This document shows, one piece after another, positions 3,921 through 63,368 of a DNA stretch of 64,000 bases. Made by a program: the position numbers and the translations under genes. Every line of letters starts with the position of its first letter. Position 1 is the first letter of the stretch. The notes beneath the pieces are model-generated. The model searched no databases and was not told the DNA's origin. It saw only the letters and a program-made list of their open reading frames with translations. Source of the DNA: a virus (taxonomy: Duplodnaviria > Heunggongvirae > Uroviricota > Caudoviricetes); the IMG/VR virus record IMGVR_UViG_3300028833_002293, positions 36,535 to 100,534 of that record; one strand, 5' to 3'.

Positions 3921-3923
3921 ATA

Positions 3924-5488: not shown

Positions 5489-5506
5489 AAATTTTATTTT
5501 TATTAA

Positions 5507-5710: not shown

Positions 5711-5725
5711 TTTTTTATTATTTGT

Positions 5726-6052: not shown

Positions 6053-6058
6053 TTTATG

Positions 6059-6691: not shown

Positions 6692-6914
6692 TCTTCTTGA
6701 ATACGTCTTTGAAAGGCTTTACAATGCTTTTCCAACTGAATAGCCTATCAACTAATTTCTCACTGTCTAAGTCTATTACAAGACCCTCTAGTATTCCAAG
6801 TTTCTCTTTATATGTTGATGCCTCTTTTGAAACATCAACAAGGGTTGACTCCAACTGCTTGATTTTATTCTTCAAGCCATTGTACTCTGTCATCGGGATT
6901 TCTATCCTAGGCAT
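6675..6914 (-). CDS. hypothetical protein (coiled-coil-like)
   Basis: 79 aa ORF. Confidence 0.4.
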   Translation of the reverse strand: MPRIEIPMTEYNGLKNKIKQLESTLVDVSKEASTYKEKLGILEGLVIDLDSEKLVDRLFSWKSIVKPFKDVFKKNDKTE

Positions 6915-7874: not shown

Positions 7875-7997
7875 ATCTTATTATTTTTTCTGCAAAGATA
7901 CTAAAAATATTTTAAATATAAAAATATTATATAATATATTATATTTTATTAATATTATTTAATATATTATTATATATTACTTAAAGAACCTAATAGA

Positions 7998-9392
7998 TTA
8001 GACTGTTAGGCTCTTCAGTTTGTTCTCTACAATCTCAAATGCTTCATCCTTAGTCATGTTAGGATTCTCAAAGTAAGCATCTTTAACAGTTTCAAGGAGT
8101 ATTCCTATTGTTGGAGAAGGTTTGATTTTAAATTCTTTTATGATGTCATTCCCAGAAATTGGAAGTTTTACATTTGCAGCTTTCTCAGCATCTTCCATTT
8201 CCTCAATTCTATTAAGAATATCAAGAACTTGTCTCTTCTTCTTACCATAGGTACAGTGCAAGTTGTTTGCATTCATCAAGTCAACAGTTGTGCCAAGGTC
8301 TTCACCAGTGAGGTTAATGAACTTCCTAATCTTCTTATCTGGAGGCATCACACCATCAGCATAAGGCGCAAATCCCCTATGGAACTTAATGGCAGTCTCT
8401 ACCGCCTTAATAATATAGTTAGGGAACTTCATTGCCTTAAGGTCATCAGCAGCCACTTCAGCACTGAATTTGTCTGGATTAACGTCTCTCCTTCTGTCAG
8501 TAATGATTCTGCCAACGTCATGGAACAACGCAGCTAAACGGTTCTCAAGATACGGCTGCACAGTATCAACCACGTTCATGGTATGGTCGAAAGTAGATAC
8601 CATTGGATTCTTTGACTCAAACGCATAAGTTGTGTCGTAAATGTCTGGCATTACTCTATGCAGTATTCCACAGTAGTACATTTTGCGAATACCAATACTA
8701 GGCTTTTTACAAAGCAGTATCTTTGAGATTTCGTCACTGATACGCTCTTGAGAGATTATCTTGATTCGATGTGCATTTTTAACCATACCCAACCATGTAT
8801 TCTTCTCAATACCCCAACCAAATCTAGTTGAGAAACGTATAACACGCAGTATTCTCAATGGGTCATCGTTGAACGTAATGTCTGGGTCAGTCGGTGTCTT
8901 AATCACTTGGTTCACAAGGTCATCCAAACCGTTGTTATAATCGTGAATCTTCTCTGTGCTAATGTTGTAGTACAGAGAGTTGATTGTAAGGTCACGTCTC
9001 TTAGCATCCTCTTGAATCGTACCATACACTGTGTCTGGATTTCTGCTCTCCTTATGATACTGCTCCTTACGAGTCTGAACACACTCAATCTCAATGTCTT
9101 TCAGCTCATCGTTTTTATAAAGCTGAAATTTAGCAGTTCCATATGTCTCAAACACGACTGGATTAGTTCCTTGTATATAACACTGATGCTTCATTGCCAT
9201 GTAACTTGCAAAGAGCATCCCCCCATTTTTGATTTCAATAACGATGTCAACGTCTTTTATGGGTTCATTGAGTAACGCATCCCTCACAGCACCGCCACAA
9301 ATATATACTTTTCCTTCAAAATGAGTTCCTTTAATTGAAGACTGTATTAGTTTTAACAGCTTTTTTATTTTTTCATCCTTGAAAATTTCCAT
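7998..9392 (-). CDS. cca: CCA-adding tRNA nucleotidyltransferase with HD domain
   Basis: 464 aa; Pol-beta head motif GGAVRDALL...DVDIV plus an HD-domain (HDVGR) region, as in bacterial CCA-adding enzymes. Confidence 0.65.
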   Translation of the reverse strand: MEIFKDEKIKKLLKLIQSSIKGTHFEGKVYICGGAVRDALLNEPIKDVDIVIEIKNGGMLFASYMAMKHQCYIQGTNPVVFETYGTAKFQLYKNDELKDIEIECVQTRKEQYHKESRNPDTVYGTIQEDAKRRDLTINSLYYNISTEKIHDYNNGLDDLVNQVIKTPTDPDITFNDDPLRILRVIRFSTRFGWGIEKNTWLGMVKNAHRIKIISQERISDEISKILLCKKPSIGIRKMYYCGILHRVMPDIYDTTYAFESKNPMVSTFDHTMNVVDTVQPYLENRLAALFHDVGRIITDRRRDVNPDKFSAEVAADDLKAMKFPNYIIKAVETAIKFHRGFAPYADGVMPPDKKIRKFINLTGEDLGTTVDLMNANNLHCTYGKKKRQVLDILNRIEEMEDAEKAANVKLPISGNDIIKEFKIKPSPTIGILLETVKDAYFENPNMTKDEAFEIVENKLKSLTV

Positions 9393-11319: not shown

Positions 11320-12810
11320 TTATCCATGTCCTTCTCCATTGTCGGTAGCTATAGCACCTCTTGTTGCATCTGCTACAGCACCTCTTAGTGTTGCTGGGTT
11401 GTAATATATCATGTCATCATTGTTAGCAGTAAAAGTGTTAACCAACTCAGCAGTAAGTCTATCAACCTCGTTTCTTATACCACGAACTGTTTCCTCATTT
11501 GGGTGAAGAACCTCATCATGGTCGATTACAGTAGTGTTAGTTGCACGTCTCATTGTACCATCGTCATAGATTTCGTAACGTCCTGGATTCCATGCAATTG
11601 GTGCGTCTAGTGCTTGTCTTACACCGTTATCTCTTCCATTGTTGTCTTCCTCTGCAAGCATTTCATCAATGAAATCTCTCTCTGCTTCATAATTGTTTCC
11701 CTCTTGAATGTTCTCTTCGTCTATAATTTCTTCATCTTCTTCCATTGTTTCATCATCAAATGGGTCATTGTATGTGAATTCATGCGCTTTCATTTTTTCA
11801 TTAAACGAATCAGCCACGTATTCATTTTCTTTAAGCATCTTCGAAAAATCAATTTTGAAAAAGGAAGAGGCTGCGTTATTAAAGTGGAAAAACTGAAACT
11901 TGTTTAAAGATTGGAAAAGAATGTCGTTAATTATGTTTTGACTAGAATTCTTAAATCTGCTATATACCCAGATATAAGGCTTCTTATTATTCTCTACAAT
12001 CTTGTTATAGATTTTATCCATAATCATTCTCTCTTCTGTTATATCCTTAATAACAGTATTATCCTTTGAAGCCCAAGTAGAATGTTTGAATGAGTTCATT
12101 CCAGGATATGCGAATGACGGACAGCTAGCAGTTACGACACAAGCGATATTATATTCTTTTAGAATCTTATCAATATCTTCTTCATTGTATTGCATTCTCT
12201 CATTTTCCCAATACATCTTTCTACCAACACGCTTCTCTTGCTCCATCCTCCATGTTCTGTCAAGAGATACACAACCACCAATACATAGGCAGTTAAACTT
12301 GTTCAGTTTGATAACTGAATAGTCTTGAACCGTTTTGATGTTACTGATGTCAATAAGAGCGTCTTCAAAATACTTAGGGTCATCGTTACCCCTCACAAAC
12401 AATACGTGTGTATTGTTGTCTGCTAGAACCTTATTAAACATTTCTAGCTTATCGTGATAGTATTTCAAATCCTTTTCGCCAAATCCATTGCAACCATCTA
12501 CTATAATAACAGTATCTGTGAGGCTGTAACCACAATTCATCATCTTTGGCATTTTTTTCAGTCTAGTAGGTCTAGGTGCATAGTGCGGTGCTGGACCACC
12601 AAATATTCCACCCCCACCGTTATGATTTTCTTCTTCCCTTTTCCTAGCTAGTCTCTCTTGTCTTTCAATCTCTTTGGGGTGTGTTTCAACCACATAGCTC
12701 TTTAAGTTGCGTAGACTGCCGACTACTGTCTTGATAAATCTATCAAAGTTTCCGTCAATGCTACCGCAAATTAAACAGTTTTTAGTTTTACCATAATCGT
12801 AAATTTTCAT
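11320..12810 (-). CDS. calcineurin-like metallophosphoesterase (possible polynucleotide 3'-phosphatase partner of the RNA ligase)
   Basis: 496 aa; GNDD motif (LFVRGNDDPKYF) and DGC...G metal-binding motifs of the calcineurin-like phosphoesterase fold; promoter 12850..12890. Confidence 0.55.
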   Translation of the reverse strand: MKIYDYGKTKNCLICGSIDGNFDRFIKTVVGSLRNLKSYVVETHPKEIERQERLARKREEENHNGGGGIFGGPAPHYAPRPTRLKKMPKMMNCGYSLTDTVIIVDGCNGFGEKDLKYYHDKLEMFNKVLADNNTHVLFVRGNDDPKYFEDALIDISNIKTVQDYSVIKLNKFNCLCIGGCVSLDRTWRMEQEKRVGRKMYWENERMQYNEEDIDKILKEYNIACVVTASCPSFAYPGMNSFKHSTWASKDNTVIKDITEERMIMDKIYNKIVENNKKPYIWVYSRFKNSSQNIINDILFQSLNKFQFFHFNNAASSFFKIDFSKMLKENEYVADSFNEKMKAHEFTYNDPFDDETMEEDEEIIDEENIQEGNNYEAERDFIDEMLAEEDNNGRDNGVRQALDAPIAWNPGRYEIYDDGTMRRATNTTVIDHDEVLHPNEETVRGIRNEVDRLTAELVNTFTANNDDMIYYNPATLRGAVADATRGAIATDNGEGHG

Positions 12811-15328: not shown

Positions 15329-17809
15329 TTAGAACGGAGGGTTTTCTAAGTCTATGGTATATCGACCAACTCTTCCACTGTTAACAGTAACATGACTTAC
15401 TACAAACGCCTCTTGCTCTTTCTTGGTCTTTATAACTGAGTCATAGATTGGGGCAATCCAAGCATGTTTCTCAGCTAGACTCTTAATTGTATCTTGCATT
15501 TCCTCGTCACCGAATCTTGCAAAGTAAGACACAATATAATTAGTTGTATCTCTTTTTTCGGACATATTTAGATTATCAAGCATCAAATACATAAGTTCCT
15601 TGATAAGAGCACCTGTTAAACCAGAATTATAGATATTACTAATAATTTTATGGTATATCATATTGAAATCAGTACCCTTCTTATTCTCACGTTTGATAAT
15701 TTCTTTGACAATAAGGTAATTACCCACGTACATAACATCATTACGATTCTTCAATGTCTCGTTATAGAAAGCCTCAATACGCTCTTCATTCGGTTTCTCC
15801 ATCACTGAGTTACGATACAACTGTCTGCTAGCTGTTTTGAGATTATTGAACGAACATTTCAAAATCTCTGCAATATAGCTAGAATCTATATACTCGTTGA
15901 GGTAATGACCATTGTCATATATAATGTTAAGATAGTCGAATGATAAGAAATCTACAACTGACTGATATATAGTGTGATAGATTGTTTCATGCTCAAAGTA
16001 ATCCATCATTGCCTTATGCAAGCAATTCTTTTCTTTCTTGATACAGTCCATCAACATGTTTACATTAAAACTAGTGAAAGCGTTTCTAACTTTCTTATTA
16101 ATGTCATCAGTTCTTCTGATAATATCATAAGGTACACCAAATTCAATCAGTTTGGAATCAAAATTGACATTGACGCTCATTGAGGTTTCATTGTACATAT
16201 AGTTGCAATAGTCTTCTTCTGAGTCACCGTTATAGATGATACCAAATATCAGTTTATTTGGGTCATACTGACTCATAGTGAAATCAGCAAAGATAATGTG
16301 TTGCTCTTCATAATCATCAGATGAAATGTTATCCATGTAAGCATCACCAAAGAAATACTTGATATTCTCGTCACGAACTGACAGCACAAGTCTGTCACCA
16401 TCATATTTGATAACATCGACATTATTCTTGTCCACACACTCATAGAGATAAGACATTAAATCCTCATAGCTCCACTTGTATTGCGGTTTATCATAATGCG
16501 CAACTAGAGTGATGTCAATGCCACAATTCTGGAGCACCTTGTAGATGCTGTTACTACCATCGAATCTTGCAAGGTATGACTTGAGCATAAGGGTATTCAT
16601 GTTGTTACCACCATTCATCAAGTTATCGTTGATGAAGTTGTGTGCCGAAGTGATACCCTTGTTGTATGTTGTGGTAAAACCTACAATAGATAGTTTATCA
16701 TCCTCAAGTTTTGAGAAGTCAAAAATCATATACTGTGTTGCCTTACCATGATTATATTCAATGTAATTATTCCAATATGTCTTATTCTTGGAAATACACC
16801 AGTTGGTTGTCTTACCCAATTGCTTGATGGTTTCGTAGTCTGCTACTTTAACAAGAACAACAAAATCGTTTTCATAGACCACCTCATAGTTGATACCATC
16901 TACATTCTTAATGAAATCCATGAATGACTCCTTACTCCAGTCAAAATGTACACTTGTGACGTGTCTCATTTGACGCATAAGCTCTTGATAGTTATCAATA
17001 GTTGATACCTTTCTAATGAAGTTGTTCTTCTTTGTGTCAGAAAGCTTAGAGAATCTTGCCAACGTATTCTTGTCAGTCTTTGACTGTTCGTTAGTTTTCA
17101 ATAGTTTTTTCTGTGCTGTATTGAATAAGTTGATGGCATCGTTAACTCGCTTCTCATTTCTGAGAATTGCCAACTCTTCCATAAGGTCGTTTACACTTTC
17201 TTGACTTGTATAAGCTGTGATAGTACCTTTTGACAAGTTTTTTGTCAACTGCTTATAATGCTCATTCCAAGTGAGGATGTTAAGAATAGTACGCATAGAG
17301 CAACCAGCCTTGAAATATAAATCCATAGCCCACTGGAAGAAGTATTTAGAACCTTCAGTATAGATGTAAATTCTCTTGACTCTAATATCATTAGTATTTA
17401 CACCATACTTTTCAGTAAGGCTTTTGACCATCTTGTTATTTTCCTTCAAGAATGATGCATAGTCTTTGTCAAACGAATTAGGAAGAAGTGTTATCTCGTT
17501 GAATAAACCATTATATCCCCTAAATCCGTCACAGCTTTTAGTTACCTCTAATAACCCATTATGAGTAACCTCATACAACATATCACGCATTTCAGTGGAA
17601 AGACTAGATAGTGTATGAATGCTATAGTTACCTTTGTTATACCAAGAACTAAAGATATACATTCGCTCTCCTATTTTTGAGTCAGGTTTTGTTTTGATGA
17701 CCTCACAAATGTCCCAGCCATGCTCTCCGCCTCTGACTAAGATTTTTCTAAGAGAGCAATCAGACACCCTCCATAGATGTCTGATTCCTCTTATATTAGT
17801 ACCTATCAT
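15329..17809 (-). CDS. large hypothetical protein (paralogous central domain with 12948..15005)
   Basis: 826 aa uninterrupted ORF. Confidence 0.6.
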   Translation of the reverse strand: MIGTNIRGIRHLWRVSDCSLRKILVRGGEHGWDICEVIKTKPDSKIGERMYIFSSWYNKGNYSIHTLSSLSTEMRDMLYEVTHNGLLEVTKSCDGFRGYNGLFNEITLLPNSFDKDYASFLKENNKMVKSLTEKYGVNTNDIRVKRIYIYTEGSKYFFQWAMDLYFKAGCSMRTILNILTWNEHYKQLTKNLSKGTITAYTSQESVNDLMEELAILRNEKRVNDAINLFNTAQKKLLKTNEQSKTDKNTLARFSKLSDTKKNNFIRKVSTIDNYQELMRQMRHVTSVHFDWSKESFMDFIKNVDGINYEVVYENDFVVLVKVADYETIKQLGKTTNWCISKNKTYWNNYIEYNHGKATQYMIFDFSKLEDDKLSIVGFTTTYNKGITSAHNFINDNLMNGGNNMNTLMLKSYLARFDGSNSIYKVLQNCGIDITLVAHYDKPQYKWSYEDLMSYLYECVDKNNVDVIKYDGDRLVLSVRDENIKYFFGDAYMDNISSDDYEEQHIIFADFTMSQYDPNKLIFGIIYNGDSEEDYCNYMYNETSMSVNVNFDSKLIEFGVPYDIIRRTDDINKKVRNAFTSFNVNMLMDCIKKEKNCLHKAMMDYFEHETIYHTIYQSVVDFLSFDYLNIIYDNGHYLNEYIDSSYIAEILKCSFNNLKTASRQLYRNSVMEKPNEERIEAFYNETLKNRNDVMYVGNYLIVKEIIKRENKKGTDFNMIYHKIISNIYNSGLTGALIKELMYLMLDNLNMSEKRDTTNYIVSYFARFGDEEMQDTIKSLAEKHAWIAPIYDSVIKTKKEQEAFVVSHVTVNSGRVGRYTIDLENPPF

Positions 17810-22208: not shown

Positions 22209-22823
22209 TTAAACGTCCTCGTCTTCATCCAACAAACGCAACTGAAGAGAAATCTCTTCAATGCGAGTCTTGTGGTTGAAAGCCCACTCGTAGTTGTCAA
22301 TGTCCTTAATCTTGACCCACTTAATCTCGCCTACCTCTGCACCCTCATTCTTCTCTTTTGAGAACTTGAAATCAGTTGTAACGTGGTCTTCAATCTTAGC
22401 ACCAAAACGGAAAGTAACGTTCTGTCTATTGGCTGTTACTGGGTTATCTTCATAATTGATAAATATAAGACTTTCAATAGGAATATGAACACCAGTTTCC
22501 TCAAAACACTCACGGACTGCGCACTCCTTAGTGGTTTCGTCATAATCGAGATAACCGCAAGGACAATTCCACATTCCCCTAAAGTCAGCAGCCTCTAAAC
22601 CACGCTCTGATGCTAGGACACACCAATCGCCATCTTCGTCCTTACAAAACGCAAACAATGCTGTTGCCATAGAACGGCTAAACCATCCAATGAAACACTT
22701 GTTAATCACCTCCAAGAACGGTTCATCGTCAATACCAGCGACACCGATGTTGGCACAGAGGTTTTTGATTTCCTCAATAAGTTTATTCATGTCCAAACAA
22801 GGACGATTTGTCATTTTCTCCAT
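22209..22823 (-). CDS. Nudix hydrolase
   Basis: 204 aa; Nudix box GX5EX7REVCEETG is present (AVRECFEETGVHI). Confidence 0.6.
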   Translation of the reverse strand: MEKMTNRPCLDMNKLIEEIKNLCANIGVAGIDDEPFLEVINKCFIGWFSRSMATALFAFCKDEDGDWCVLASERGLEAADFRGMWNCPCGYLDYDETTKECAVRECFEETGVHIPIESLIFINYEDNPVTANRQNVTFRFGAKIEDHVTTDFKFSKEKNEGAEVGEIKWVKIKDIDNYEWAFNHKTRIEEISLQLRLLDEDEDV

Positions 22824-25952: not shown

Positions 25953-27239
25953 TTAATACCAAATTATTGATTTATCTTGTACCCAATCTGGGAATTTAGT
26001 ATAAACCTCTTGAATTGGTGTTCTTTCGCTACACCATTGGAAGCTAGTGCTAACACAAATTTTCTCTGGAGCTTCTCCAGTTTCAACAGCGAGTGTAATT
26101 ACGTTATCACCATTTTTTACAATTACAGGAATTGACTTAACGGCTTCTGCTCCGTCAATATTCCAATTTGCATCGCCCAATATTACTTTATAGCTAACTG
26201 GTGGACGTGATACGATTCCAGTGTTGACCATAGTGTTAGTAGACACATTGAACATATTATGTACCTCTTTTCCACCAACTGTAAGTGGTAGAGTTCCACC
26301 AGCTGCTTGTAGGGTGATATATGCTACAAGTTTATTTGCGCCCAAGTCTCCAATCCACTCATTAGCAACCTTTGCGTCAAATACAACGTCATTGTAGTCA
26401 AAGTCAGATGTGCTTCCACCAAGGTCTTCTGCAATAATTCTTACAGCACCTTCCATATTGAACTTAGCTGGACTAATCTTCACAATCCAATCGTTGAAGA
26501 CCCAATCCCTAGTCACATCCATATTAACGTTTGCATCTTGACCTACTGGATGGTATCCAACAATGTCAAATCCAACATAGTATGCGCCATCAATCTCAAG
26601 GATGATATAGTCATAGTAGTAATTACTAGAAGAGGTGTTGTGATAACCAAATTGGTCTGCAACCTCACCGCTACCCATATCAACCATCAACGTAGTGCCA
26701 ATGAACTTCTCGTGTGTAACATCATCAGTGTACTCAGTAGTGTTATTAGCATTGTTAAAGTTATTAACGTGCTCATAACTGTTGGTATTGAAATTCCAAG
26801 CTAGCAATTGATTCATAACGCCACTAGGATAAACATGAGTGCCATTTCCATCTACAGAATACTGAGTGCCTTGATGAACTTGCTGAACCCAATAATTCTC
26901 CCAAGGTATATTTTCAATATGAGTTGCACCTTCACGGACTTTAGAGAACTCAGCAACAACCTTTTCCTTTTCAGCTTCTGTCACGTTAACTGGCCTCTCC
27001 CACTGCTGATACCACATATTTCCGTTAACATTGTGGCCTCTAGTCTTGTTTTGTGAAAAATCAAACAAAACAATAGATTCATTGAATCCCCAATCTTGGT
27101 TCTTGTCTATCTTACCAAAAGTATTGGTGAATTCAGCCTTAAACTTTGCATCTGCTGCCTCTTGATAACTTAAATCATTATCGTGCCCACAAGCAGCAAA
27201 CGATAACACGGCAAATAGCCCTAAAATTAATTTCTTCAT
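25953..27239 (-). CDS. lipoprotein, function unknown
   Basis: 428 aa; signal peptide with lipobox (LSFAAC). Confidence 0.55.
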   Translation of the reverse strand: MKKLILGLFAVLSFAACGHDNDLSYQEAADAKFKAEFTNTFGKIDKNQDWGFNESIVLFDFSQNKTRGHNVNGNMWYQQWERPVNVTEAEKEKVVAEFSKVREGATHIENIPWENYWVQQVHQGTQYSVDGNGTHVYPSGVMNQLLAWNFNTNSYEHVNNFNNANNTTEYTDDVTHEKFIGTTLMVDMGSGEVADQFGYHNTSSSNYYYDYIILEIDGAYYVGFDIVGYHPVGQDANVNMDVTRDWVFNDWIVKISPAKFNMEGAVRIIAEDLGGSTSDFDYNDVVFDAKVANEWIGDLGANKLVAYITLQAAGGTLPLTVGGKEVHNMFNVSTNTMVNTGIVSRPPVSYKVILGDANWNIDGAEAVKSIPVIVKNGDNVITLAVETGEAPEKICVSTSFQWCSERTPIQEVYTKFPDWVQDKSIIWY

Positions 27240-34222: not shown

Positions 34223-34594
34223 TTAGTAACTCATGCGTGAGGGAATACATCCCCTCACACCCCCTCTTGGGTCTTCAACATCACCATCATACCTTGGTAT
34301 AATATGAATGTGGCAGTGCATCACGGTTTGTCCAGCACTCTTACCACAATTAACACCAATGTTATAACCACTTGGATGATACTTATCATCAAGTATTCCT
34401 TTAACGTGGTCAACTGCGCCAACAAGAGCACCCAATTCCACTTGGTTTAAATCAAAATAAGTTTCACAATGTCTTTTGGGAATTAATAGGGCATGCCCTT
34501 CCGAGACTGGATAACCATCTAAAATAGCCACCCATAAAGAATCTTGATAGACTATTCTATCTTCTTTGATGCCACAAAATACACAACCTTCCAT
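34223..34594 (-). CDS. HIT-family nucleotide hydrolase
   Basis: 123 aa; histidine-triad motif HCHIHIIP. Confidence 0.65.
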   Translation of the reverse strand: MEGCVFCGIKEDRIVYQDSLWVAILDGYPVSEGHALLIPKRHCETYFDLNQVELGALVGAVDHVKGILDDKYHPSGYNIGVNCGKSAGQTVMHCHIHIIPRYDGDVEDPRGGVRGCIPSRMSY

Positions 34595-35094
34595 TATTCT
34601 TCTACGGTTATACGTTTAATCTCACCAATTGCAATGTCCAAAGCCTCATTGATAGCTGTTTCTATGTTCTGACCTCGCAACCCATCAACATTGATTTTGC
34701 TATATTTGAAATCAACTTTTTTGTCGGTTAATGTAGCCACACAAATCCAAACCGTATTATCTGGGTCTTCATCAGCCGCCATAGGTGGAACTACGTTACC
34801 CACAACAGCCACACAAACGTCCACATTAAGCTTATAAATACCGTTGAGAGCCATTTGGCAAGCTGCTTGGGAACTAACAAGCCCATTGTTTTTAAACACG
34901 TTGTGAGAGACTTCTAGCATTTTCTCCATGTGGTCTGCATCGACTGTAACAATTGTACCACCATAAACGGTTGAAAGACCACACATGCTTGAGATTGATG
35001 CACCAAGCAAACCACTAGTGCAATGCTCAACAGTTCCGATGGTTAGACCAGCGTTCAGAAGCTCTAATCCTAATACTTTTAATTTATCCCTCAT
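34594..35094 (-). CDS. CinA C-terminal domain protein (PncC-type NMN deamidase)
   Basis: 166 aa; LTIGTVEHCTSGLLGASIS matches the CinA/PncC signature. Confidence 0.55.
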   Translation of the reverse strand: MRDKLKVLGLELLNAGLTIGTVEHCTSGLLGASISSMCGLSTVYGGTIVTVDADHMEKMLEVSHNVFKNNGLVSSQAACQMALNGIYKLNVDVCVAVVGNVVPPMAADEDPDNTVWICVATLTDKKVDFKYSKINVDGLRGQNIETAINEALDIAIGEIKRITVEE

Positions 35095-36124: not shown

Positions 36125-36322
36125 GTGTTATAACTTGAGACGATAATTGGTAATAATATATAATAGGTTTACCTGTACCAACCTTAAAGGTATCCTCTTA
36201 TCCATCAAGGAACTAGGGCAAGGGACTAATCCTCGCACCGCATTACTGCTTGTCTGCCATTTCTTACGTGGCTTGCGCTGTCTAACACATTTAAATCCTC
36301 AATATGAGAATACCAGCCGTAG

Positions 36323-36413
36323 TGAGCGTAGTAGGATTCGAACCCACGGTGAACTTTCTCAAGCCCATGCTAGTTTTAGGGACTAGTGCTTTAAACCACT
36401 CAGCCATACGCCC
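36323..36413 (-). tRNA. class-II tRNA with CUA anticodon - candidate amber (UAG) suppressor
   Basis: reverse complement: GGGCGTA/TACGCTC acceptor (one G-U) + A73; anticodon arm CTAGT-CCCTAAA-ACTAG, so anticodon CTA; ~20-nt variable region; T-arm GTGGG-TTCGAAT-CCTAC. Confidence 0.5.
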
Positions 36414-38379: not shown

Positions 38380-38687
38380 ATGATATATTTTTTAATTTGT
38401 TTATTATTATTAATGAATTTAAAATACTTCACTTATATTTCCCATCCAAACTAAAATATATCAGGACCACGAATTAGTTTCAGCTACCAAAACTCGCTAG
38501 AAACCTACCAAAAACTGTTTTTTCTCATAATGATAATTAATTTAAATTTGTTATTAAAAAACGGAAGCTTTTTTTCTAGAATAAATGATTATAAGTCAAG
38601 TCCTATAGAAATTTGCTGTTAGCTTCCTTGAAATGAAAATAAGGAGATTTCTCTCCACTCCTAAATTTAATATCTACGTTTTTTTGT

Positions 38688-39744: not shown

Positions 39745-40000
39745 TTGCAGGGACTGACGGACTCGAACCGCCATCGTTTATTAACAGTTAAAGGCACACT
39801 CTGTTCCGAAGTCGAGACTGCGTTATTCCTTAAATCGCAACAAATTACTCTTACCATTAAGCTAAATCCCTATATAAATACAAAAGACTGAGAATTTTGT
39901 CTTATTGTTGATGCCATTCTACAACGGTTGGACGTTGCTCTTCACACGCTACCTTACGATAGACGTAGACACCATGCACGGACGGTCTTGTGAAGACCAC
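39745..40000 (-). ncRNA. LSU (23S) rRNA-like fragment, domain IV region (equivalent to E. coli ~1880-2070), containing a tRNA-like T-arm and a 22-nt repeat
   Basis: minus strand reads ...CTGCACCGTAAGGTTTAA...TCGTAAGGTAGCG...GAATGGC...CAGTCTCGACTTCGGAACAGAGTGTGCCTTTAACT, colinear with 23S H67-H71 and the GACGGAAAGACCCCGUGAACCUUUACU segment. Confidence 0.4.
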
Positions 40001-40964
40001 CAAGAAACTTACTAGTTTAAACCTTACGGTGCAGCATCATAGCTTTCAGTTCTTCGCCAAGCTCTTGCGGATTCGTAGGATGCCTCCTACTGACTCAGAC
40101 GAGTACTTTTACACGCTCATTGATTTCCTTGCGAGTCCTCAATGTCTCAATATTGCATGAGAATAAGTGCATTTTAGCTGCCTAGTGTCGCACACTTTCG
40201 CTTTGAGTTATATTATCATTTTTGAAATCCTAATTCAAACCTTATTTGTGCAACGATTATGGAAGACGAGGTGCGACTGATAGCATTCGTACCTTTTGAG
40301 CACGACCCACTAAATCGCCTCCCTGTGAAAGCTCACCACAAGCAACTCACTATCACGTACTATCAGCTCCTATGAGTTCTTACGTCTTTCAACGTAAGAC
40401 TAGTACACAACTGAACCCAACACGCCAACTGGTGATTATTGCATCGAGTTCCGCATGGTAATCTTTTGTGTCACCACTCATCCAAAGACGTACCTTGCCC
40501 TTGGAAGCCTACACCAATGGTGTTACCCACAGCGTAGACCGTACCATGCGCTTTTCCGTGAAATGCCTTGAGAGCTTCGGCTCTCCAAACATCCGCAATG
40601 CCTAACCGTAACAAACAGCATCACGTTTATCCCATCACTGGATTATCCTTCCATCTGGCCACGAAAGCTGGCCATTAGCCTATGCCTTTTGCAAGACATT
40701 TCCTCTTGGAATCAGCTTATTCTTTTGGGTATTATTTCCATTTTGGATTATTATAATCAGTAAAGTGCTTCCTCTTACGAGGTGGGTCTCTATCCCAAGC
40801 TCCGATTCTTTACACCATCATAGAATACCTTCCCCAATTCATTTTTTTCTAGTACACGTTCTCTAGAATTATGGCTTCCGAAGTCACCATAGTTATGGAT
40901 TGTTTAACCACATAAAACCCACTTTTACCGTTGTCTACGGCACGAAAAGGCATTTAATGTTGGT

Positions 40965-41652: not shown

Positions 41653-41756
41653 ATATTATGTATCTAAGTCGGAAACTATATTTTTTTCGCGTTTTAGATT
41701 TACAGTCTAATGAAAAGTTAATTAATTGCTGTAAGTTTCCTTTATTAGTTTCAACT

Positions 41757-42167: not shown

Positions 42168-42255
42168 AGTAACTTAGTGGAGCTAGAGGGAGTCGAACCC
42201 TCGTGCAAACAACCATTCCATAAGAAATTATACAAGCTTCCCCAAAGTGTTCGAA
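42168..42255 (-). ncRNA. tRNA-like element (canonical T-arm GAGGG-TTCGACT-CCCTC; acceptor pairing unclear)
   Basis: T-arm and adjacent 3' strand present; the 5' strand could not be paired cleanly. Confidence 0.25.
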
Positions 42256-42571
42256 AACACCGCCTTTGAGACCACCTCATTTTGTGAAAACGAGGAAAAC
42301 TAGGGGGGATGACTGGGAGTCACCGATTCCACCATTCAGTTTTGAGAAAACCGAAAAAACAAAATGCTAGGTTGTTCTGTTCCTAAGAGCCTAGCCTCTC
42401 GGCTCACTTACGCTGCAATAGCGTACTCGTAAGCAGGAGAATTAACATTCTCGCCAGTTATAGTTTTTGCTATTTTGGGTGTATGCCCACCGCTTGTTTC
42501 TTACCAAACGCATTGCTGTCAAATCCATTATAGCCCCATACGTTTCAAATGCTCAAAGAACTCTTTTAATG

Positions 42572-42679: not shown

Positions 42680-42750
42680 TACGGAAACGTTTTAATACAT
42701 TAAGTTGCTCTAGCCAACTGAGCTACAAGGAGCATAAAACTCCTCGATGG
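42680..42750 (-). ncRNA. split / permuted tRNA-like pair: T-arm plus acceptor 3' strand lies immediately upstream of an acceptor 5' strand plus D-arm
   Basis: minus strand: GGGTTCGAATCCCAT-CGAGGAG-TTTTAT-GCTCCTTG-TAGCTCAGTTGGCTAGAGCA; the two acceptor strands can pair (with two G-U). Confidence 0.3.
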
Positions 42751-43083
42751 GATTCGAACCCATGACCTACTACTTACAAGGCTTATTAAAAAACTATTGC
42801 TGTCTGTTTCCTTAGCGCTTGAGGTCGGATTTGCACCTTCTGTCTCTGTCTCCATCTTTCGATTTTGTACCAGCGTTTATACTACTTAACACTTCTCAAG
42901 CATGTTTCGCCTACTGTACTCATGTGATAACTTGAAAATGTATCACAACAAGCCATCGCAGACTTGTCTTGCATTAACGTAGTTAAGACCAATATACGGC
43001 ATTCTTGACCTAAAGTATGCTTACGAACACGTTATATATATACTGTTTATCATGCCATAAAACCTCTAACGTGTAAAAGGTTA

Positions 43084-48306: not shown

Positions 48307-48380
48307 TGCGCCTAGAGGGATTCGAACCCTCGACCCCATGATTAAAAGTCATGTGCATCTACCAACTGAGCTATAGGCGC
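48307..48380 (-). tRNA. tRNA-Lys (anticodon UUU), copy 1 of a tandem duplicate
   Basis: reverse complement: GCGCCTA-TA-GCTCAGTTGGTAGA..CATGA-CTTTTAA-TCATG-GGGTC-GAGGG-TTCGAAT-CCCTC-TAGGCGC-A. Confidence 0.65.
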
Positions 48381-48399
48381 ATTGCTTATTAAAAATTTG

Positions 48400-48473
48400 T
48401 GCGCCCAGAGGGATTCGAACCCTCGACCCCATGATTAAAAGTCATGTGCATCTACCAACTGAGCTATGAGCGC
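48400..48473 (-). tRNA. tRNA-Lys (anticodon UUU), copy 2 of a tandem duplicate
   Basis: near-identical to 48307..48380; acceptor changed to GCGCTCA/TGGGCGC. Confidence 0.65.
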
Positions 48474-59479: not shown

Positions 59480-59562
59480 GCTCTAACCCTACTGAGCTAC
59501 CGCCACATATAGATAATAAATGGTGTGGCGGACAGGATTCGAACCTGTGACCCCTAGCATAG
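59480..59562 (-). ncRNA. permuted or split tRNA arrangement: 3' half (T-arm plus CCGCCAC-ACCA) lies 14 nt upstream of its complementary 5' half (GTGGCGG plus D-arm)
   Basis: minus strand: ...ACAGG-TTCGAAT-CCTGT-CCGCCAC-ACCA-TTTATTATCTATAT-GTGGCGG-TA-GCTC-AGTAGGGTTA-GAGC-AC...; acceptor strands are perfectly complementary and a CCA is encoded. Confidence 0.35.
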
Positions 59563-59605
59563 CGTGCTTTTTAAACGATGTACTTTGCTGTACGTTTCCA
59601 CCTTG

Positions 59606-59919: not shown

Positions 59920-60933
59920 TTACTGAAGTACCTTAACTATTGCTAGACGATTGAGCTGCACGCCAATACCTTTCCAACTATTGACTCTTACACCACGTTT
60001 TGTCAAGTAATTAGCTACCACTTCTGCACGACTTTCAGAAATCATCTGATTAAATTCAGGCGTACCTTCTGGAGAAGCAGTACCAATAACGTCTACAATA
60101 ATGTCTTGTCCGATTGAATTCAATATTGTTTTAGCATTGTCAGATAAATCTGCCTTACCTTGTTCAAACTCTACAGTCCAATCATTTTTATTAATAGTTA
60201 CTTCAGTTTTTTTTTCCACTGTAGGTTTTCTATCCATACATTCCTTAAGGTCTGACTTAAGTTGGTCTATCCTTCCTCTTTGATATTCAATTTCAGAATT
60301 CATTAGTCCAATGTCATATGTCTTAAAGTGATGTGTGCCATTACTGTTTTTAAAATGGTAAACATAAGTTGCCATTAAACTGACAAGTGCATTATGGTTA
60401 TTAAACTGAATGCGGCCATCATCATTCCTAAGAAGCCAATAAATTGCTGGAGTAATTACCAATGAATGAATCTTCTTCTTGCCAAAATTGAATGCTAGGT
60501 CTGAACCTGTTTTAAGTGAAATATTATTCCTTCCACCATCAAAGGCACTATGCCATCCTAATCCACCGACTGTGGACACTTCGAAAGACCTAGGTCTGCC
60601 AATATAACCTCCAATAATGTTCGAAATGTTAAGCACACCATTCACACCAATATTGGCATTCTTGAACGCAGTTCTAGCATTTCCCACATGATTATCACTG
60701 AGAGATGTTAAAAACTCAAGCTGAGTGCCAAATACTGGAGTAATTCCCTTGCTAAACGCAAAACCAAAAGTGGTGTTCATTGGGAATACATTGTCAAAAT
60801 CAAGAGGTGTGGTCACACCAAATGTTCCACTAACGCTAAGATTATCAAGCGCATTGCTATTTTCAGTAGCAATCTGTGCATTTGCACTTACAATGGCACT
60901 AAACAGTGCCAACATCAAAAAAATTTTCTTCAT
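59920..60933 (-). CDS. OmpA-family outer-membrane protein (signal peptide, beta-barrel, C-terminal OmpA peptidoglycan-binding domain)
   Basis: 337 aa; N-terminal signal MKKIFLMLALFSAIVSANA; C-terminal segment (TASPEGTPEFNQMISESRAEVVANYLTKRGV) matches the OmpA_C signature. Confidence 0.55.
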   Translation of the reverse strand: MKKIFLMLALFSAIVSANAQIATENSNALDNLSVSGTFGVTTPLDFDNVFPMNTTFGFAFSKGITPVFGTQLEFLTSLSDNHVGNARTAFKNANIGVNGVLNISNIIGGYIGRPRSFEVSTVGGLGWHSAFDGGRNNISLKTGSDLAFNFGKKKIHSLVITPAIYWLLRNDDGRIQFNNHNALVSLMATYVYHFKNSNGTHHFKTYDIGLMNSEIEYQRGRIDQLKSDLKECMDRKPTVEKKTEVTINKNDWTVEFEQGKADLSDNAKTILNSIGQDIIVDVIGTASPEGTPEFNQMISESRAEVVANYLTKRGVRVNSWKGIGVQLNRLAIVKVLQ

Positions 60934-61103
60934 AACTTTTATTTAATATTATTTAGAATTAATTAGTCATAAAAAATAAGGGAACTATGTTTTGATAGAA
61001 TCGAACTACCTATTTTTTATTTCACAGATAAAAAAATTAACCAAATAAAACTTGCTGTAAGTTCCCGCATATATACTATTTCTTGCAGATTGTATATTCT
61101 AAT

Positions 61104-61418: not shown

Positions 61419-61843
61419 AACATTGCCTTTAAAAAACGGATACTTTTGTTTAATAGACCAATACCTACGAATAGGTGCTTAAACCATTTTATTAGGTTTA
61501 GCTTGGATTCGAACCAAGAAATTGTAACAAAGTCACATTGCTGTTAGTATCCTTGAGTTAACTATATCAACTATCACGTTTGGACTGCTACTAGAGACCT
61601 TACCCCCATCCATACCTCTCTAGGAAGATAACCTAGCACATTCTTTCAATTTCCATGACCCCACAGTTTATTGGACTTACGTGGCACGATTATTTGATAT
61701 ATAGTTGATGGTGTGGGATTCGAACCCACGTTGCCGATAGGCTGCGTTCCTACAGAAATTATTCACCTATCCATAGGATTCACTACTCTCTAGTTTCTTT
61801 TAGTACCGCCTTGCGCAATCCAGCTTACTGAACCATCAATTTG

Positions 61844-61916: not shown

Positions 61917-61929
61917 ATTTTCGGAAACA

Positions 61930-62000
61930 TTTTTTATTTTTTACATTGCTCTACCAACTGAGCTACAACGAGCTATTGCCCATTGAAGAGACTCGAACTC
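61930..62000 (-). ncRNA. third instance of a T-arm/acceptor-3' segment immediately upstream of a tRNA 5' half (GCTCGTT plus D-arm)
   Basis: minus strand: AAGAG-TTCGAGT-CTCTT-CAATGGG-C-AATA-GCTCGTT-GTA-GCTC-AGTTGGTA-GAGC-AATG. Confidence 0.25.
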
Positions 62001-62214
62001 TTGACCTACGGATTACAAATCATAATAAAAACGTTTGCATTGCTGTATGTTTCCTTTTATGTTTTATGAGACTGTTTTGGCTCTATGCTTTCTGTTCTAT
62101 CACGTTCCAATACGTAATCCCTAAGAAGGGTTAGGCTTAACGAATTATTCTTTTACATTTCATTCGCCCTCTTGCTACTATAGCAAGACTGTGATTACTC
62201 ACCGTTCAGTCTCA

Positions 62215-62338: not shown

Positions 62339-62479
62339 TTTAGAATTTTTTTTATTAAAATCCCATTTCTTCTTTTTGGGCGAAGTGTTGGTAATGCTCC
62401 AACGTCTTGAGTGCCACAAACTCACATTCTGCTTTTGAACTAACTACGCCATATTAAAAAAATCGGAATCTATTTTTTT

Positions 62480-62551
62480 TCGGAATTGTTGGATTCGAAC
62501 CAACGTCTCAAAATTATCAGTTTTGCATCTTAACCACTTGATTAAATTTCG
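62480..62551 (-). tRNA. tRNA-Ile (anticodon GAU), second copy; one A-C mismatch in acceptor
   Basis: reverse complement: CGAAATT-TA-ATC..GAT-G-CAAAA-CTGATAA-TTTTG-AGAC-GTTGG-TTCGAAT-CCAAC-AATTCCG-A. Confidence 0.5.
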
Positions 62552-62581
62552 TAAATTATCTTGCTGTTAGATTCCTTGTAG

Positions 62582-62653: not shown

Positions 62654-62744
62654 AAAATGCCAACACTCTAGAATTCTTGCATTATTACCTCTATAGTCTT
62701 ATGCTACTCTTAGAGAGGTTGTCTAAAGACTTGTACTAGCTTGT

Positions 62745-63368
62745 CGGAGAGGAGGGATTCGAACCCCCTGCATTTCTTATGTACTAGATTTCTTGCCACA
62801 CTATGTTACCATAGCCAAACTTAACAATAACGTATATACGAGGCACATGTCCCCATGCATCCAACCGATGATGCGTTAAATTTGTTGTGGTCTGGAATAC
62901 ATCTTTACCATATTGAAATTCTTCGAAGTTAATGTTCAGTAATTCCTATCATCTGTTTCATCTGATACGTCTACTTAAAATTAGATAGATATGTACATTA
63001 AATTTCAACTTAGGCATTCTTATCAGATACGTCTGAATAGAATGTGAGGGTATTCAATATATTTCCCTCATATCTCCTCTATACTCTCTACACGTTTATG
63101 AGAATCTTTCATTATCCATCTTCTTCCATTTTACTGATGGCTCTTCTCAATTTAGCACGGTATTATCCTTCCTTATTGTTTCAGATGCAGTTTACGTTTG
63201 CTGCAAGCCATTAAAGCCGTATTCCACTTTCGCCTATAGGCTACTAAGGGTCTTCAATTTTAACTAGGACTTCCACCGTTTTAGGGAGATTCTCATATGG
63301 GATTTCTCGCCATATGATGCAAATTCCTTACAGTCTAGCGCCCATCCACCATCTGAGCAGCTCTCCGA
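62745..63368 (-). ncRNA. ~620-nt mosaic RNA module, copy 2: termini CGGAGAG...CTCTCCG with a D-arm-like 5' end and a T-arm at the 3' end
   Basis: same five conserved blocks and GNRA hairpin CTATG-GTAA-CATAG as 54736..55311. Confidence 0.4.

What the first reader, a model, noticed from the sequence alone, without database searches (positions are those of the whole stretch)
59480..59562. Inverted-order tRNA halves: a 3' half with encoded CCA lies 14 nt upstream of its matching 5' half (permuted or split tRNA gene?)
On the minus strand a T-arm plus acceptor 3' strand plus ACCA (ACAGG-TTCGAAT-CCTGT-CCGCCAC-ACCA) comes first. A 14-nt AT spacer follows. Then comes a perfectly complementary acceptor 5' strand with a canonical D-arm (GTGGCGG-TA-GCTC-AGTAGGGTTA-GAGC). 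The same architecture recurs at 42680..42750 and 61930..62000. A fourth case has halves 1.3 kb apart: the 5' half at 56113..56142 (GCATCCG plus D-arm) and the T-arm plus CGGATGT at 54737..54775. An HNH endonuclease gene and tRNA-Arg(UCU) lie between them. Circularly permuted tRNA genes are known only in a few eukaryotes and archaea. Alternatively these are scars of repeated recombination at tRNA genes, such as tandem deletions or integrase target duplications.
Basis: seen in the sequence. Interest (0 to 1): 0.65.

Follow-up and report, generated by a model that had tools for sequence, protein, structure and literature searches.

The report
Clamped, circularly permuted tRNA mimic
A giant-phage tRNA cluster encodes small RNAs that are whole tRNAs with their ends swapped: the amino-acid end is capped by a loop and the true ends pair in a conserved handle, so this is a conserved tRNA look-alike, not a broken gene, within a larger family not found in Rfam or the papers searched.

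Summary
At 59454-59599 (minus strand) a T arm and acceptor 3' strand (+ACCA) come before a perfectly complementary acceptor 5' strand and D arm. The same layout occurs at 42683-42811 and 61923-62054, and also at 58584-58733. It is neither chance nor decay. Twenty-six distinct orthologues in metagenomic phage contigs keep the arrangement with compensatory changes. Joining the halves in silico gives a canonical cloverleaf in 14 of 14 units. So these are true circular permutations of whole tRNAs, broken inside the anticodon stem.

The RNA's own 5' and 3' ends pair in a conserved 6-8 bp clamp next to an invariant ACAGCAA. This is the topology of bacterial YrlA (Y RNA-like) tRNA mimics, which Rfam matches below threshold. 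The Ro60-binding motif is absent, and no TROVE gene was found among the 40 larger window ORFs scanned.

The same clamp also encloses anticodon-type hairpins, an ordinary tRNA and a 23S L1-stalk copy. The encoded CCA is not conserved (4 of 26). Acceptor identity and the "anticodon" both vary. The best reading is a tRNA-mimic RNA on a protein-binding handle, not a decoding tRNA.

The fourth case is different. It is a tRNA-Arg gene broken by an intervening element and an HNH cassette, and it is intact in a relative.

The parts
59454..59599 (-). Whole unit A (146 nt): clamp, ACAGCAA, linker helix, anticodon-type side hairpin, T arm, capped acceptor hairpin, D arm, clamp.
   Evidence: The covariance model built from its orthologues scores it at 165.5 bits. 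The Rfam YrlA match is 59452-59572, 35.3 bits, below the gathering score of 69.
59592..59599 (-). Clamp 5' strand GGAAACGT. It pairs with 59454-59461.
   Evidence: Variants in other units (GGGAAC, GGAAGC, GAAAAC, GGAATC, GGATAC, GGAGTC) are all compensated on the 3' strand.
59585..59591 (-). ACAGCAA, an almost invariant unpaired motif directly after the clamp. Inferred to be a recognition site.
   Evidence: 12 matches against 2.2 expected. ACAGCAA in 91 of 112 full-length family members found without using the motif as a filter.
59557..59567 (-). Side hairpin GC-ACGCTAT-GC. It corresponds to tRNA positions 30-40 (anticodon loop plus 2 bp). This copy has an aberrant loop.
   Evidence: the loop is AUUCCAA in 16 of 26 orthologues, including the nearest relatives; the 2-bp stem covaries; U33 in 73 of 86, A37 in 68 of 86, A38 in 78 of 86.
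59532..59548 (-). T arm ACAGG-TTCGAAT-CCTGT.
   Evidence: 99.8% of cells paired; 4 of 5 pairs covary.
59525..59531 (-). Acceptor 3' strand CCGCCAC.
   Evidence: 7 of 7 pairs covary across the family.
59507..59524 (-). Capping loop: A73, CCA and 14 nt. Only C74 is conserved.
   Evidence: ACCA in 4 of 26 orthologues, C74 in 26 of 26.
59500..59506 (-). Acceptor 5' strand GTGGCGG.
59480..59497 (-). D arm GCTC-AGTAGGGTTA-GAGC, preceded by T8 A9 at 59498-59499.
   Evidence: nt 8-9 are TA in 24 of 27 modules.
59476..59478 (-). CTA, tRNA positions 27-29. It pairs with TAG at 59554-59556. The permutation break lies just after it.
   Evidence: the 3-bp helix covaries, e.g. UAC/GUA in L006.
59454..59461 (-). 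Clamp 3' strand ACGTTTCC.
42683..42811 (-). Unit B (129 nt): permuted Thr(UGU)-like tRNA with a 7-nt acceptor cap.
   Evidence: R1 77.7 bits. Rfam YrlA 37.5 bits.
61923..62054 (-). Unit C (132 nt): permuted Thr(UGU)-like tRNA with a 6-nt acceptor cap.
   Evidence: R1 85.4 bits. Rfam YrlA 33.3 bits.
58584..58733 (-). Permuted class-II-like body with a long variable arm and no anticodon loop; its anticodon stem runs on into the handle.
   Evidence: R1 53.4 bits, full length.
61438..61552 (-). Unit E (115 nt): degenerate relative (clamp GGATAC/GTATCC, T arm, capped hairpin, altered D region).
   Evidence: Parser and fold only; it did not reach the R1 cutoff.

Best explanation
The locus encodes a conserved ~146-nt phage small RNA that is a circular permutation of a complete tRNA. 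It lies on the same strand as the whole tRNA array and starts 5 nt after the end of tRNA-Gly(UCC).

It is predicted to fold as an entire tRNA cloverleaf, with these features:
- a T arm and a D arm with the loop sequences that form the tRNA elbow (TTCGAAT; GG in the D loop);
- U8 and A9;
- a 7-bp acceptor stem;
- an anticodon-type hairpin.

The acceptor end is closed by a loop. The molecule's real 5' and 3' ends leave the anticodon stem between positions 29 and 30. They pair with each other as a 6-8 bp clamp next to an invariant single-stranded ACAGCAA.

This is the architecture of bacterial YrlA / Y RNA-like tRNA mimics. Here it sits on a different handle. That handle is shared by a family of at least 150 phage RNA units whose cargo also includes bare anticodon-type hairpins, ordinary tRNAs and a copy of the 23S L1 stalk.

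Shown: the sequence anatomy, its conservation and covariation, and the modular family.

Inferred:
1. The unit is co-transcribed with the tRNA array and released from the transcript.
2. The handle is a sequence-specific binding or processing site for a protein not yet identified.
3. The tRNA-shaped body engages proteins that recognise tRNA. In long-loop units such as this one (7-bp stem, N73, C74) that could include RNase P cleavage of the cap and CCA repair by the phage's own CCA-adding enzyme, as documented for Mycobacterium smegmatis YrlA.
4. It does not decode. The likeliest role is decoy or adaptor for tRNA-binding host or phage factors, such as tRNA-targeting defence nucleases.
For: - Anatomy.
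- Above chance: strict scan finds 3 true sites against 0.04 expected.
- Orthologues, 7 sequences: 99.1% of cells paired, 4 of 7 acceptor pairs compensated, 0 of 500 shuffles reach the covariation score, slid controls 29-45% paired.
- Orthologues, 26 distinct sequences with the same arrangement.
- Covariance model R1: 130 distinct matches, 93.8% paired, 32 of 33 pairs with changes on both sides; it hits window units A, B, C and D full length.
- Re-joining in silico gives canonical tRNAs in 14 of 14 units and in 39 of 45 under a looser automatic test that tried 40 junctions per unit.
- Clamp: 97 of 154 ACAGCAR sites have the exact complement of the upstream 6-mer 45-260 nt downstream, against 7 in the control.
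- Rfam YrlA matches all three sites over the full model.
- Against a decoding role: CCA in 4 of 26; 1:72 pair varies (G:C, C:G, A:U, G-U); N73 is A, U or G; the side-loop triplet varies (UCC, UUC, UAC and others).
- Ordinary tRNA-Gly(UCC) and tRNA-Thr(UGU) are present as well.
- Same clamp on other cargo; L1 stalk at 53 bits, E 4e-15.
- CCA-adding enzyme and an RNA ligase are encoded in the window.
- Phage-restricted as far as tested: one pattern hit in 185,579 species genomes, and it looks like chance.
Against: - No expression or end-mapping data exist. Transcription, release and any cleavage are inferred.
- No binding protein was identified.
- The Rfam YrlA scores (33-37 bits) are far below the gathering score of 69, and most of that score comes from tRNA-like parts. 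The YrlA model also gives false hits on tandem tRNAs, seen here at 48327-48445.
- Anticodon-loop hallmarks (U33, A37, A38) are conserved in 79-91% of the 86 family members that have a 7-nt side loop. A decoy aimed only at the tRNA elbow would not need them. This leaves room for real anticodon-related function or for maturation.
- Alignment A2 was assembled by a parser that required pairing, and A3 is fitted to the model. Their percent-paired values are inflated. The diversity of pair types is not.
- Only 64 kb of the genome was available; related contigs reach 100-412 kb.
Confidence: 0.68

Rival explanations
1. It is a genuine circularly permuted tRNA gene. After transcription the handle is removed and the ends at positions 29 and 30 are joined, for instance by nick sealing with the phage RNA ligase. 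The acceptor cap is opened by RNase P and 3' trimming or CCA addition. The product is a functional or two-piece decoding tRNA.
For: - Re-joining gives a complete canonical cloverleaf in 14 of 14 units.
- Anticodon-loop hallmarks are conserved across the family.
- Unit A has a 7-bp acceptor stem with N73-C74 and, in this copy, ACCA.
- An RNA ligase (PF09414) and a CCA-adding enzyme are encoded in the window.
- A break inside a helix would leave a nick in duplex RNA, the substrate class of Rnl2-type ligases (my own knowledge; the ligase subtype was not established here).
Against: - No bulge-helix-bulge motif, and no splicing-endonuclease domain in the 40 ORFs scanned.
- CCA is not conserved. Identity pairs 1:72 and 2:71, N73 and the 'anticodon' vary among close orthologues.
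- B and C units cap the acceptor with 5-8 nt and often start with C1 or U1.
- Normal tRNAs with the same anticodons are present.
- The window copy lacks U33 (ACGCUAU).
- The same handle encloses cargo that cannot become a tRNA.
- Unit D has no anticodon loop at all.
Confidence: 0.1
2. It is a bona fide Y RNA (YrlA family). It would be bound through its terminal stem by a Ro60/Rsr (TROVE) protein encoded elsewhere in the phage or host genome, and would act as a gate or tether for an RNA-degradation or repair machine.
For: - Full-model Rfam YrlA matches at all three sites.
- Identical domain order.
- YrlA RNAs are reported in phages, with several Y RNAs per locus, next to RNA-repair genes (PMC4201824, PMC7790460).
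- RNA ligase and CCA-adding enzyme are in the window.
Against: - Scores are half the gathering threshold.
- By inspection, the defining 5'-strand motif GNCGAAN0-1G is absent. A different motif (GGAAAC-NN-ACAGCAA) is conserved instead.
- No TROVE domain in the 40 ORFs scanned in the window (all those of 150 aa or more), nor in the genes called over about 10 kb beyond its left end.
- YrlA lacks the anticodon-type hairpin retained here.
Confidence: 0.12
3. It is a recombination scar: the remains of two tandem tRNA genes (3' part of one, 5' part of the next) left by deletions or homing-endonuclease activity, with no function.
For: - The array is rich in HNH genes and rearranged tRNA genes.
- Tandem duplication followed by trimming is the standard route to a circular permutation.
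- The long caps (15-22 nt) resemble inter-tRNA spacers, such as those between the tandem tRNA-Lys genes.
- The fourth case is indeed a disrupted gene.
Against: - Twenty-six distinct orthologues keep the exact arrangement, with compensatory changes in every helix and highly conserved linkers.
- The two acceptor strands pair with each other, which adjacent unrelated tRNAs would not.
- The unit is bounded by a covarying clamp.
Confidence: 0.02
4. It is the tRNA-like domain of a two-piece (permuted) tmRNA.
For: A CCA-bearing acceptor piece upstream of the 5' acceptor strand is the layout of permuted ssrA genes. There is a weak local Rfam hit to tmRNA_permuted (20 bits).
Against: - The hit covers only the T arm and acceptor, and is far below the gathering score of 47.
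- There is a full D arm.
- No mRNA-like domain or tag reading frame fits in 146 nt.
- ARAGORN finds no tmRNA here.
- A standard one-piece tmRNA is present at 42175-42537 (76.9 bits).
Confidence: 0.01

Closest known systems
YrlA / bacterial Y RNA-like tRNA mimics (Rfam RF02553; Chen et al. 2014, PMC4201824)
   Same: The 5' and 3' ends pair as a terminal stem. The internal module runs T arm, then a loop-closed acceptor stem, then D arm. Examples occur in phages. A YrlA with a 7-bp 'acceptor' (M. smegmatis) is cut by RNase P and receives CCA. Rfam matches all three window sites over the full model.
   Different: - Scores are 33-37 bits against a gathering score of 69.
- By inspection, the Ro60-binding motif GNCGAAN0-1G is absent and GGAAAC-NN-ACAGCAA takes its place.
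- No TROVE gene in the ORFs scanned.
- An anticodon-type hairpin is retained, so the RNA is a whole permuted tRNA rather than a top half.
- It sits inside a phage tRNA array.
- The handle is shared with non-tRNA cargo.
Circularly permuted tRNA genes of Cyanidioschyzon merolae and other algae, and of the archaeon Thermofilum
   Same: The 3' half is encoded upstream of the 5' half. A short linker joins the acceptor strands. Leader and trailer pair with each other. Re-joining restores a cloverleaf.
   Different: - The break lies inside the anticodon stem (29/30; 31/32 in one subtype).
- No bulge-helix-bulge motif and no splicing endonuclease.
- Identity elements and anticodon are not conserved among orthologues.
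- Many copies have caps too short to look like processing linkers.
- The context is a virus of bacteria.
Two-piece (permuted) tmRNA genes (Rfam RF04321)
   Same: A permuted tRNA-like domain, with the CCA-side strand upstream of the 5' acceptor strand.
   Different: No mRNA-like domain or tag. A complete D arm and an anticodon-type hairpin are present. A normal tmRNA exists in the same window.
Split tRNA genes of Nanoarchaeum equitans (from my own knowledge)
   Same: The tRNA parts are held together by complementary flanking sequences.
   Different: Here both parts lie on one transcript in reversed order. The flanks are a conserved motif shared with unrelated cargo. Nothing indicates trans-splicing.

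Membership tests
YrlA (RF02553) | Terminal stem formed by the 5' and 3' ends, enclosing T arm, loop-closed acceptor stem and D arm in that order | tested here: met
YrlA (RF02553) | Score at or above the Rfam gathering threshold (69 bits) | tested here: not met
   37.5, 35.3 and 33.3 bits.
YrlA (RF02553) | Ro60-binding motif GNCGAAN0-1G on the 5' strand of the stem (PMC4201824) | tested here: not met
   Checked by reading the units printed (no dedicated pattern search): none of the window units or site-A orthologues shows the motif. GGAAAC-NN-ACAGCAA is conserved instead.
YrlA (RF02553) | Encoded next to a Ro60/Rsr (TROVE-domain) gene | tested here: not met
   No TROVE hit in the 40 window ORFs scanned against Pfam (all those of 150 aa or more), nor in the genes called over about 10 kb beyond the window start. 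The rest of the genome was not available.
YrlA (RF02553) | Bound by Rsr; carries tRNA-type modifications | not testable with these tools
   Needs immunoprecipitation and modification mapping.
Circularly permuted tRNA gene (algal/archaeal type) | 3' half upstream of 5' half; re-joined sequence is a canonical tRNA | tested here: met
   ARAGORN at default threshold of 14 re-joined units. 39 of 45 were called in the looser automatic test, which tried 40 junctions per unit.
Circularly permuted tRNA gene (algal/archaeal type) | Bulge-helix-bulge motif formed by leader and trailer at the junction | tested here: not met
   Judged by inspection of the fold and alignment; no dedicated motif search was run. 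The ends form a 6-8 bp clamp, followed by an asymmetric loop (15 nt against 5 nt in unit A) and a 4-5 bp helix. No 3-4-3 bulge-helix-bulge is visible.
Circularly permuted tRNA gene (algal/archaeal type) | tRNA splicing endonuclease available | tested here: inconclusive
   None among the 40 window ORFs scanned. The whole genome and the host were not available.
Circularly permuted tRNA gene (algal/archaeal type) | Conserved anticodon and aminoacylation identity, as expected of a decoder | tested here: not met
   Side-loop triplets UCC, UUC, UAC, UAG, UGG, CGG and GCU; pair 1:72 is G:C, C:G, A:U or G-U; N73 is A, U or G; all among 26 orthologues.
Circularly permuted tRNA gene (algal/archaeal type) | Circular or re-joined RNA intermediate and a mature tRNA | not testable with these tools
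   Needs RNA-seq or RT-PCR across the 59476-59567 junction.
Two-piece tmRNA (RF04321) | Gathering score of 47 bits; mRNA-like domain with a tag reading frame | tested here: not met
   20 bits, local to the T arm and acceptor. ARAGORN finds no tmRNA here.
tRNA pseudogene / recombination scar | An intact tRNA at the same place in related genomes | tested here: not met
All 26 site-A orthologues are permuted.

The most novel reading that the evidence does not exclude
These would be the first circularly permuted tRNA genes found outside eukaryotes and archaea, matured by a new pathway. A phage endonuclease would recognise the conserved GGAAAC..ACAGCAA handle and excise it. The resulting nick in the anticodon stem (positions 29/30) would be sealed by the phage RNA ligase. 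RNase P and the phage CCA-adding enzyme would open the capped acceptor end. The products would be phage-specific tRNAs whose precursors are invisible to host tRNA-targeting defences.
Probability: 0.08. Interest if true: 0.92.

Novelty: new variant of a known kind. Interest (0 to 1): 0.72.

Why it matters
Phage tRNA arrays are usually read as codon-usage or anti-defence tRNA supplies. Here the array also carries conserved RNAs that copy the shape of a whole tRNA but cannot be ordinary tRNAs. They are mounted on a common handle that also displays anticodon-type hairpins and a copy of the ribosomal L1 stalk.

This points to a modular set of RNA mimics of the translation apparatus in very large phages. 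It extends the Y RNA-like tRNA-mimic idea beyond Ro60 systems. It also gives a testable entry point, the invariant ACAGCAA clamp, for finding the protein partner.

There is a practical point for annotation too. tRNA finders miss these units, and a YrlA model reports them only below threshold.

Tried and rejected
- GenBank phages: blastn, megablast and tblastn found no relatives beyond tRNA-Gly hits.
- Search for a Ro60/TROVE partner or other RNA-binding candidate: Pfam on 40 ORFs, PHROGs, NCBIfam and PDB sequence searches on the orphan large ORFs. All were uninformative.
- Walking off the window ends with the look-up of encoding contigs gave only about 10 kb on the left and nothing relevant.
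- One pattern scan of 185,579 species genomes gave a single hit that looks like chance.
- Literature searches for permuted tRNAs in phages, tRNA-like RNAs of huge phages, RNA decoys and L1-stalk mimics found no description of this family.
- Self-cleaving ribozyme next to tRNAs (HDV-like, hammerhead, twister, hatchet), considered by eye and rejected: no Rfam hit at E<=1, and the 5' strand pairs with the very 3' end, which does not fit the HDV-like topology.
- Other readings of the clamp, considered and rejected: a CRISPR-repeat mimic, integron attC or MITE inverted repeats (the units are strand-specific and the helix shows compensatory changes), and a kink-turn.
- Group I intron assignment for the 538-nt element in tRNA-Tyr: not confirmed by Rfam.
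- A permissive ARAGORN enumeration gave many spurious calls and was replaced by the defined-junction test.

Full report
OBSERVATION. The window carries 28 ARAGORN tRNAs, all on the minus strand between 31.3 and 62.6 kb. At the flagged place the minus strand reads as follows:
- T arm ACAGG-TTCGAAT-CCTGT (59548-59532);
- CCGCCAC (59531-59525);
- ACCA plus 14 AT-rich nt (59524-59507);
- GTGGCGG (59506-59500);
- TA;
- D arm GCTC-AGTAGGGTTA-GAGC (59497-59480).

The two 7-mers are perfectly complementary. The same order recurs at 42683-42811 and 61923-62054. I found two further copies: 58584-58733 and a degenerate one at 61438-61552. A strict scan that ignores all flanking motifs finds exactly these three sites on the minus strand plus one AT-rich artefact. 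The expectation is 0.04 per shuffled window.

THE UNIT IS LARGER THAN THE FLAGGED STRETCH. Each site is bounded by GGAAAC-NN-ACAGCAA on the 5' side and by the complementary NN-GTTTCC on the 3' side, 70-150 nt downstream. In the window plus the first 23 related loci, 97 of 154 ACAGCAR sites have the exact complement of the 6-mer at -8 lying 45-260 nt downstream, against 7 in an upstream control. Every variant of the 5' strand (GGGAAC, GGAAGC, GAAAAC, GGAATC, GGATAC, GGAGTC) is matched by its complement. The RNA's own ends therefore pair as a 6-8 bp clamp, and the flagged site belongs to a 146-nt unit, 59454-59599. MFE folding recovers the clamp, T arm, capped acceptor hairpin and D arm.

RELATIVES. 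GenBank phages hold nothing similar. Pattern scans of IMG/VR and JGI metagenomes returned many contigs, several of 200-412 kb. Twenty-six distinct orthologues of the flagged unit were recovered. In the eight whose upstream flank was examined, a tRNA-type 3' end lies 2-5 nt upstream; it is tRNA-Gly(UCC) in the window and in L007.
- Seven-sequence alignment: 99.1% of cells paired, four of seven acceptor pairs show compensatory changes, no shuffle reaches the covariation score, and slid controls pair at 29-45%.
- Covariance model built from those seven: it finds 130 distinct matches in the held loci, and window units A, C, B and D score 165.5, 85.4, 77.7 and 53.4 bits over the full model. On that alignment 93.8% of cells pair and 32 of 33 pairs change on both sides.
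- Caveats: that alignment is fitted to the model, and the spliced alignment A2 was assembled by a parser that required pairing. The diversity of pair types is the meaningful part, not the percentage paired.
- The tandem tRNA-Lys genes give only a partial hit without the clamp (48349-48443). This is the false-positive class noted by the YrlA authors.

WHAT IT IS. YrlA RNAs are tRNA mimics. Their ends form a stem, and the internal module runs T arm, loop-closed acceptor stem, D arm. They occur in phages, and the M. smegmatis YrlA, with a 7-bp stem, is cut by RNase P and receives CCA in vivo (PMC4201824). The topology is therefore a known one.

The units here go further. Just upstream of the variable region sits a 2-bp hairpin with a 7-nt loop. 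The 3 nt on either side of the core pair with each other. Joining [acceptor 5' strand..D arm..N26..3 nt] to [that hairpin..T arm..acceptor 3' strand] gives a canonical cloverleaf, which ARAGORN calls at default settings in 14 of 14 units:
- Gly(UCC), Glu(UUC) or Val(UAC) for site-A orthologues;
- Thr(UGU) for units B and C;
- Gly(UCC) for another subtype.

A looser automatic version, which tried 40 junctions per unit and accepted any call, succeeds for 39 of 45. These are therefore true circular permutations of whole tRNAs. The break lies in the 5' strand of the anticodon stem (29/30; 31/32 in one subtype). Across 112 full-length family members, 86 have a 7-nt side loop, with U33 in 73, A37 in 68 and A38 in 78. 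Unit D is the exception. It has a class-II-like body with no anticodon loop, and its anticodon stem runs straight into the handle.

WHY NOT A DECODING tRNA.
Only C74 is invariant.
- Pair 1:72 is G:C, C:G, A:U or G-U. N73 is A, U or G. The loop triplet varies. The window's own loop (ACGCUAU) lacks U33, while its nearest relatives have AUUCCAA.
- Units B and C cap the acceptor with 5-8 nt and begin with C1.
- Ordinary tRNA-Gly(UCC) and tRNA-Thr(UGU) are present.
- No bulge-helix-bulge is visible at the junction, and no splicing-endonuclease domain was found.
- Above all, the same clamp encloses cargo that is not a permuted tRNA. Examples are anticodon-type hairpins (41671-41740, 38563-38627), an ordinary tRNA-Ile (62465-62575), an unassigned 139-nt RNA (54553-54691), and a 220-nt unit containing a copy of the 23S L1 stalk (54337-54416; 53 bits, E 4e-15).

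In all, 152 distinct clamp units were seen in 51 held sequences. One pattern scan of 185,579 species genomes gave a single hit that looks like chance.

WHY NOT A PLAIN YrlA. By inspection, the Ro60-binding motif GNCGAAN0-1G is absent, and a different motif is conserved. No TROVE domain occurs in the 40 window ORFs scanned, nor in the genes called over about 10 kb beyond the left end. A Ro-like partner elsewhere in the genome cannot be excluded.

MECHANISM (INFERRED). The units lie on the tRNA strand. Of 96 units, 37 have a T-loop-like motif within the 30 nt upstream, so they appear to start just after a tRNA. They are probably co-transcribed with the array and released from the precursor. The strict sequence conservation of the clamp and ACAGCAA, on top of the pairing, argues for sequence-specific recognition by a protein, whether for binding or for processing. 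The tRNA-shaped body should attract tRNA-recognising proteins. For long-cap units such as the flagged one (7-bp stem, N73-C74, 15-22 nt cap), RNase P cleavage and CCA repair by the phage's CCA-adding enzyme (7998-9392) are plausible by analogy with M. smegmatis YrlA. I favour a decoy or adaptor role towards tRNA-binding factors. The window also encodes an RNA ligase and NAD-salvage or ADP-ribose-related enzymes (NADAR, NAPRTase, Nudix, CinA), consistent with a counter-defence neighbourhood. That link is circumstantial.

THE FOURTH CASE. The closest relative, L007, carries an intact tRNA-Arg(UCU) at the corresponding place (L007 5091-5165). In the window:
- Only its positions 1-26 remain at 56142-56116.
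- Next come a different, complete tRNA-Arg(UCU) (56033-56107), an HNH gene (55348-55962) and a second copy of the T arm.
- The 3' part of the old gene, from anticodon-loop position 37, lies at 54781-54737 behind a ~550-nt conserved element.

A 538-nt copy of that element interrupts a tRNA-Tyr(GUA) at 62743-63367. ARAGORN calls the Tyr gene once an intron is allowed. Rfam does not recognise the element as a group I intron.

VERDICT. I rate it a new variant of a known kind. The wider clamp family, with its L1-stalk and anticodon-hairpin cargo, matched no Rfam family (apart from the sub-threshold YrlA hits) and appeared in none of the papers searched.

Noticed in passing
window 54298-54517 (-), core 54337-54416: A clamp unit whose cargo is a copy of the 23S rRNA L1 stalk (Rfam LSU model positions 2131-2210; 53 bits, at or above the gathering score of 50; E 4e-15). 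It may be a decoy for ribosomal protein uL1 or a binder of tRNA elbows.
   Followed up: partly
window 62743-63367 (-): tRNA-Tyr(GUA) interrupted after anticodon position 35 by a 538-nt intervening sequence (63329-62792). The spliced exons give a canonical 87-nt tRNA, and ARAGORN finds the gene only with its intron option. By eye the element has group-I-like core sequences, but Rfam gives no match. Copies occur in at least 7 related contigs.
   Followed up: partly
A tRNA-Arg(UCU) gene is broken into positions 1-26 and positions 37 onward. Between them lie a replacement tRNA-Arg(UCU), an HNH gene, a duplicated T arm and a ~550-nt copy of the intervening element seen in tRNA-Tyr. The gene is intact in relative L007 (5091-5165).
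   Followed up: yes
window 41671-41740, 38563-38627, 60980-61066, 54553-54691, 62465-62575 (-): Further clamp units with other cargo: an anticodon-arm-like hairpin (loop CUGUAAA), short hairpins, a conserved 139-nt RNA of unknown kind, and an ordinary tRNA-Ile(GAU) enclosed by the clamp.
   Followed up: partly
window 59557-59567 (-): The anticodon-type loop of this copy reads ACGCUAU. The nearest relatives (L106, L120, L124) have an identical acceptor cap but read AUUCCAA. That is five of seven positions replaced within an otherwise highly conserved RNA. The loop is the most variable part of the family.
   Followed up: partly
window 39885-40323 (-): GOLLD-like large RNA: full-model Rfam match at 85 bits, below the gathering score of 150. 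It lies inside the tRNA array and is conserved at 78-81% in L004 and L015.
   Followed up: no
window 42175-42537 (-): One-piece tmRNA (Rfam 76.9 bits, above the gathering score of 47). ARAGORN does not call it.
   Followed up: no
window 36322-36413 (-): A 92-nt tRNA with anticodon CUA, labelled Pyl by ARAGORN. It is a likely amber suppressor, hinting at stop-codon recoding in this phage.
   Followed up: no
window 59389-59446 (-): Directly downstream of unit A lies a 58-nt element with a 7-bp terminal stem (TCGGGAG/CTCCCGA) and a T-arm-like hairpin but no anticodon arm. It is conserved in L019, L007 and L021. The fold z-score is weak (-0.8).
   Followed up: partly
window 520-9392 (-): A cluster of RNA-repair and NAD-related genes: NADAR (520-1032), NAPRTase (2580-3920), RNA ligase PF09414 (4577-5488) and CCA-adding enzyme (7998-9392). 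Nudix (22209-22823) and CinA (34594-35094) lie further on. Several large neighbouring ORFs (11320-12810, 15329-17809, 25953-27239) match no family with a useful annotation.
   Followed up: partly
window 48327-48445 (-): Tandem tRNA-Lys genes give partial hits to the YrlA model and to my model R1 (T arm of one gene plus D arm of the next). This is the false-positive type to exclude when searching for such RNAs.
   Followed up: yes
window 59920-60933 (-): A gene with an OmpA-like C-terminal domain sits inside the RNA array next to unit A. It is conserved at that position in at least 10 related contigs.
   Followed up: no
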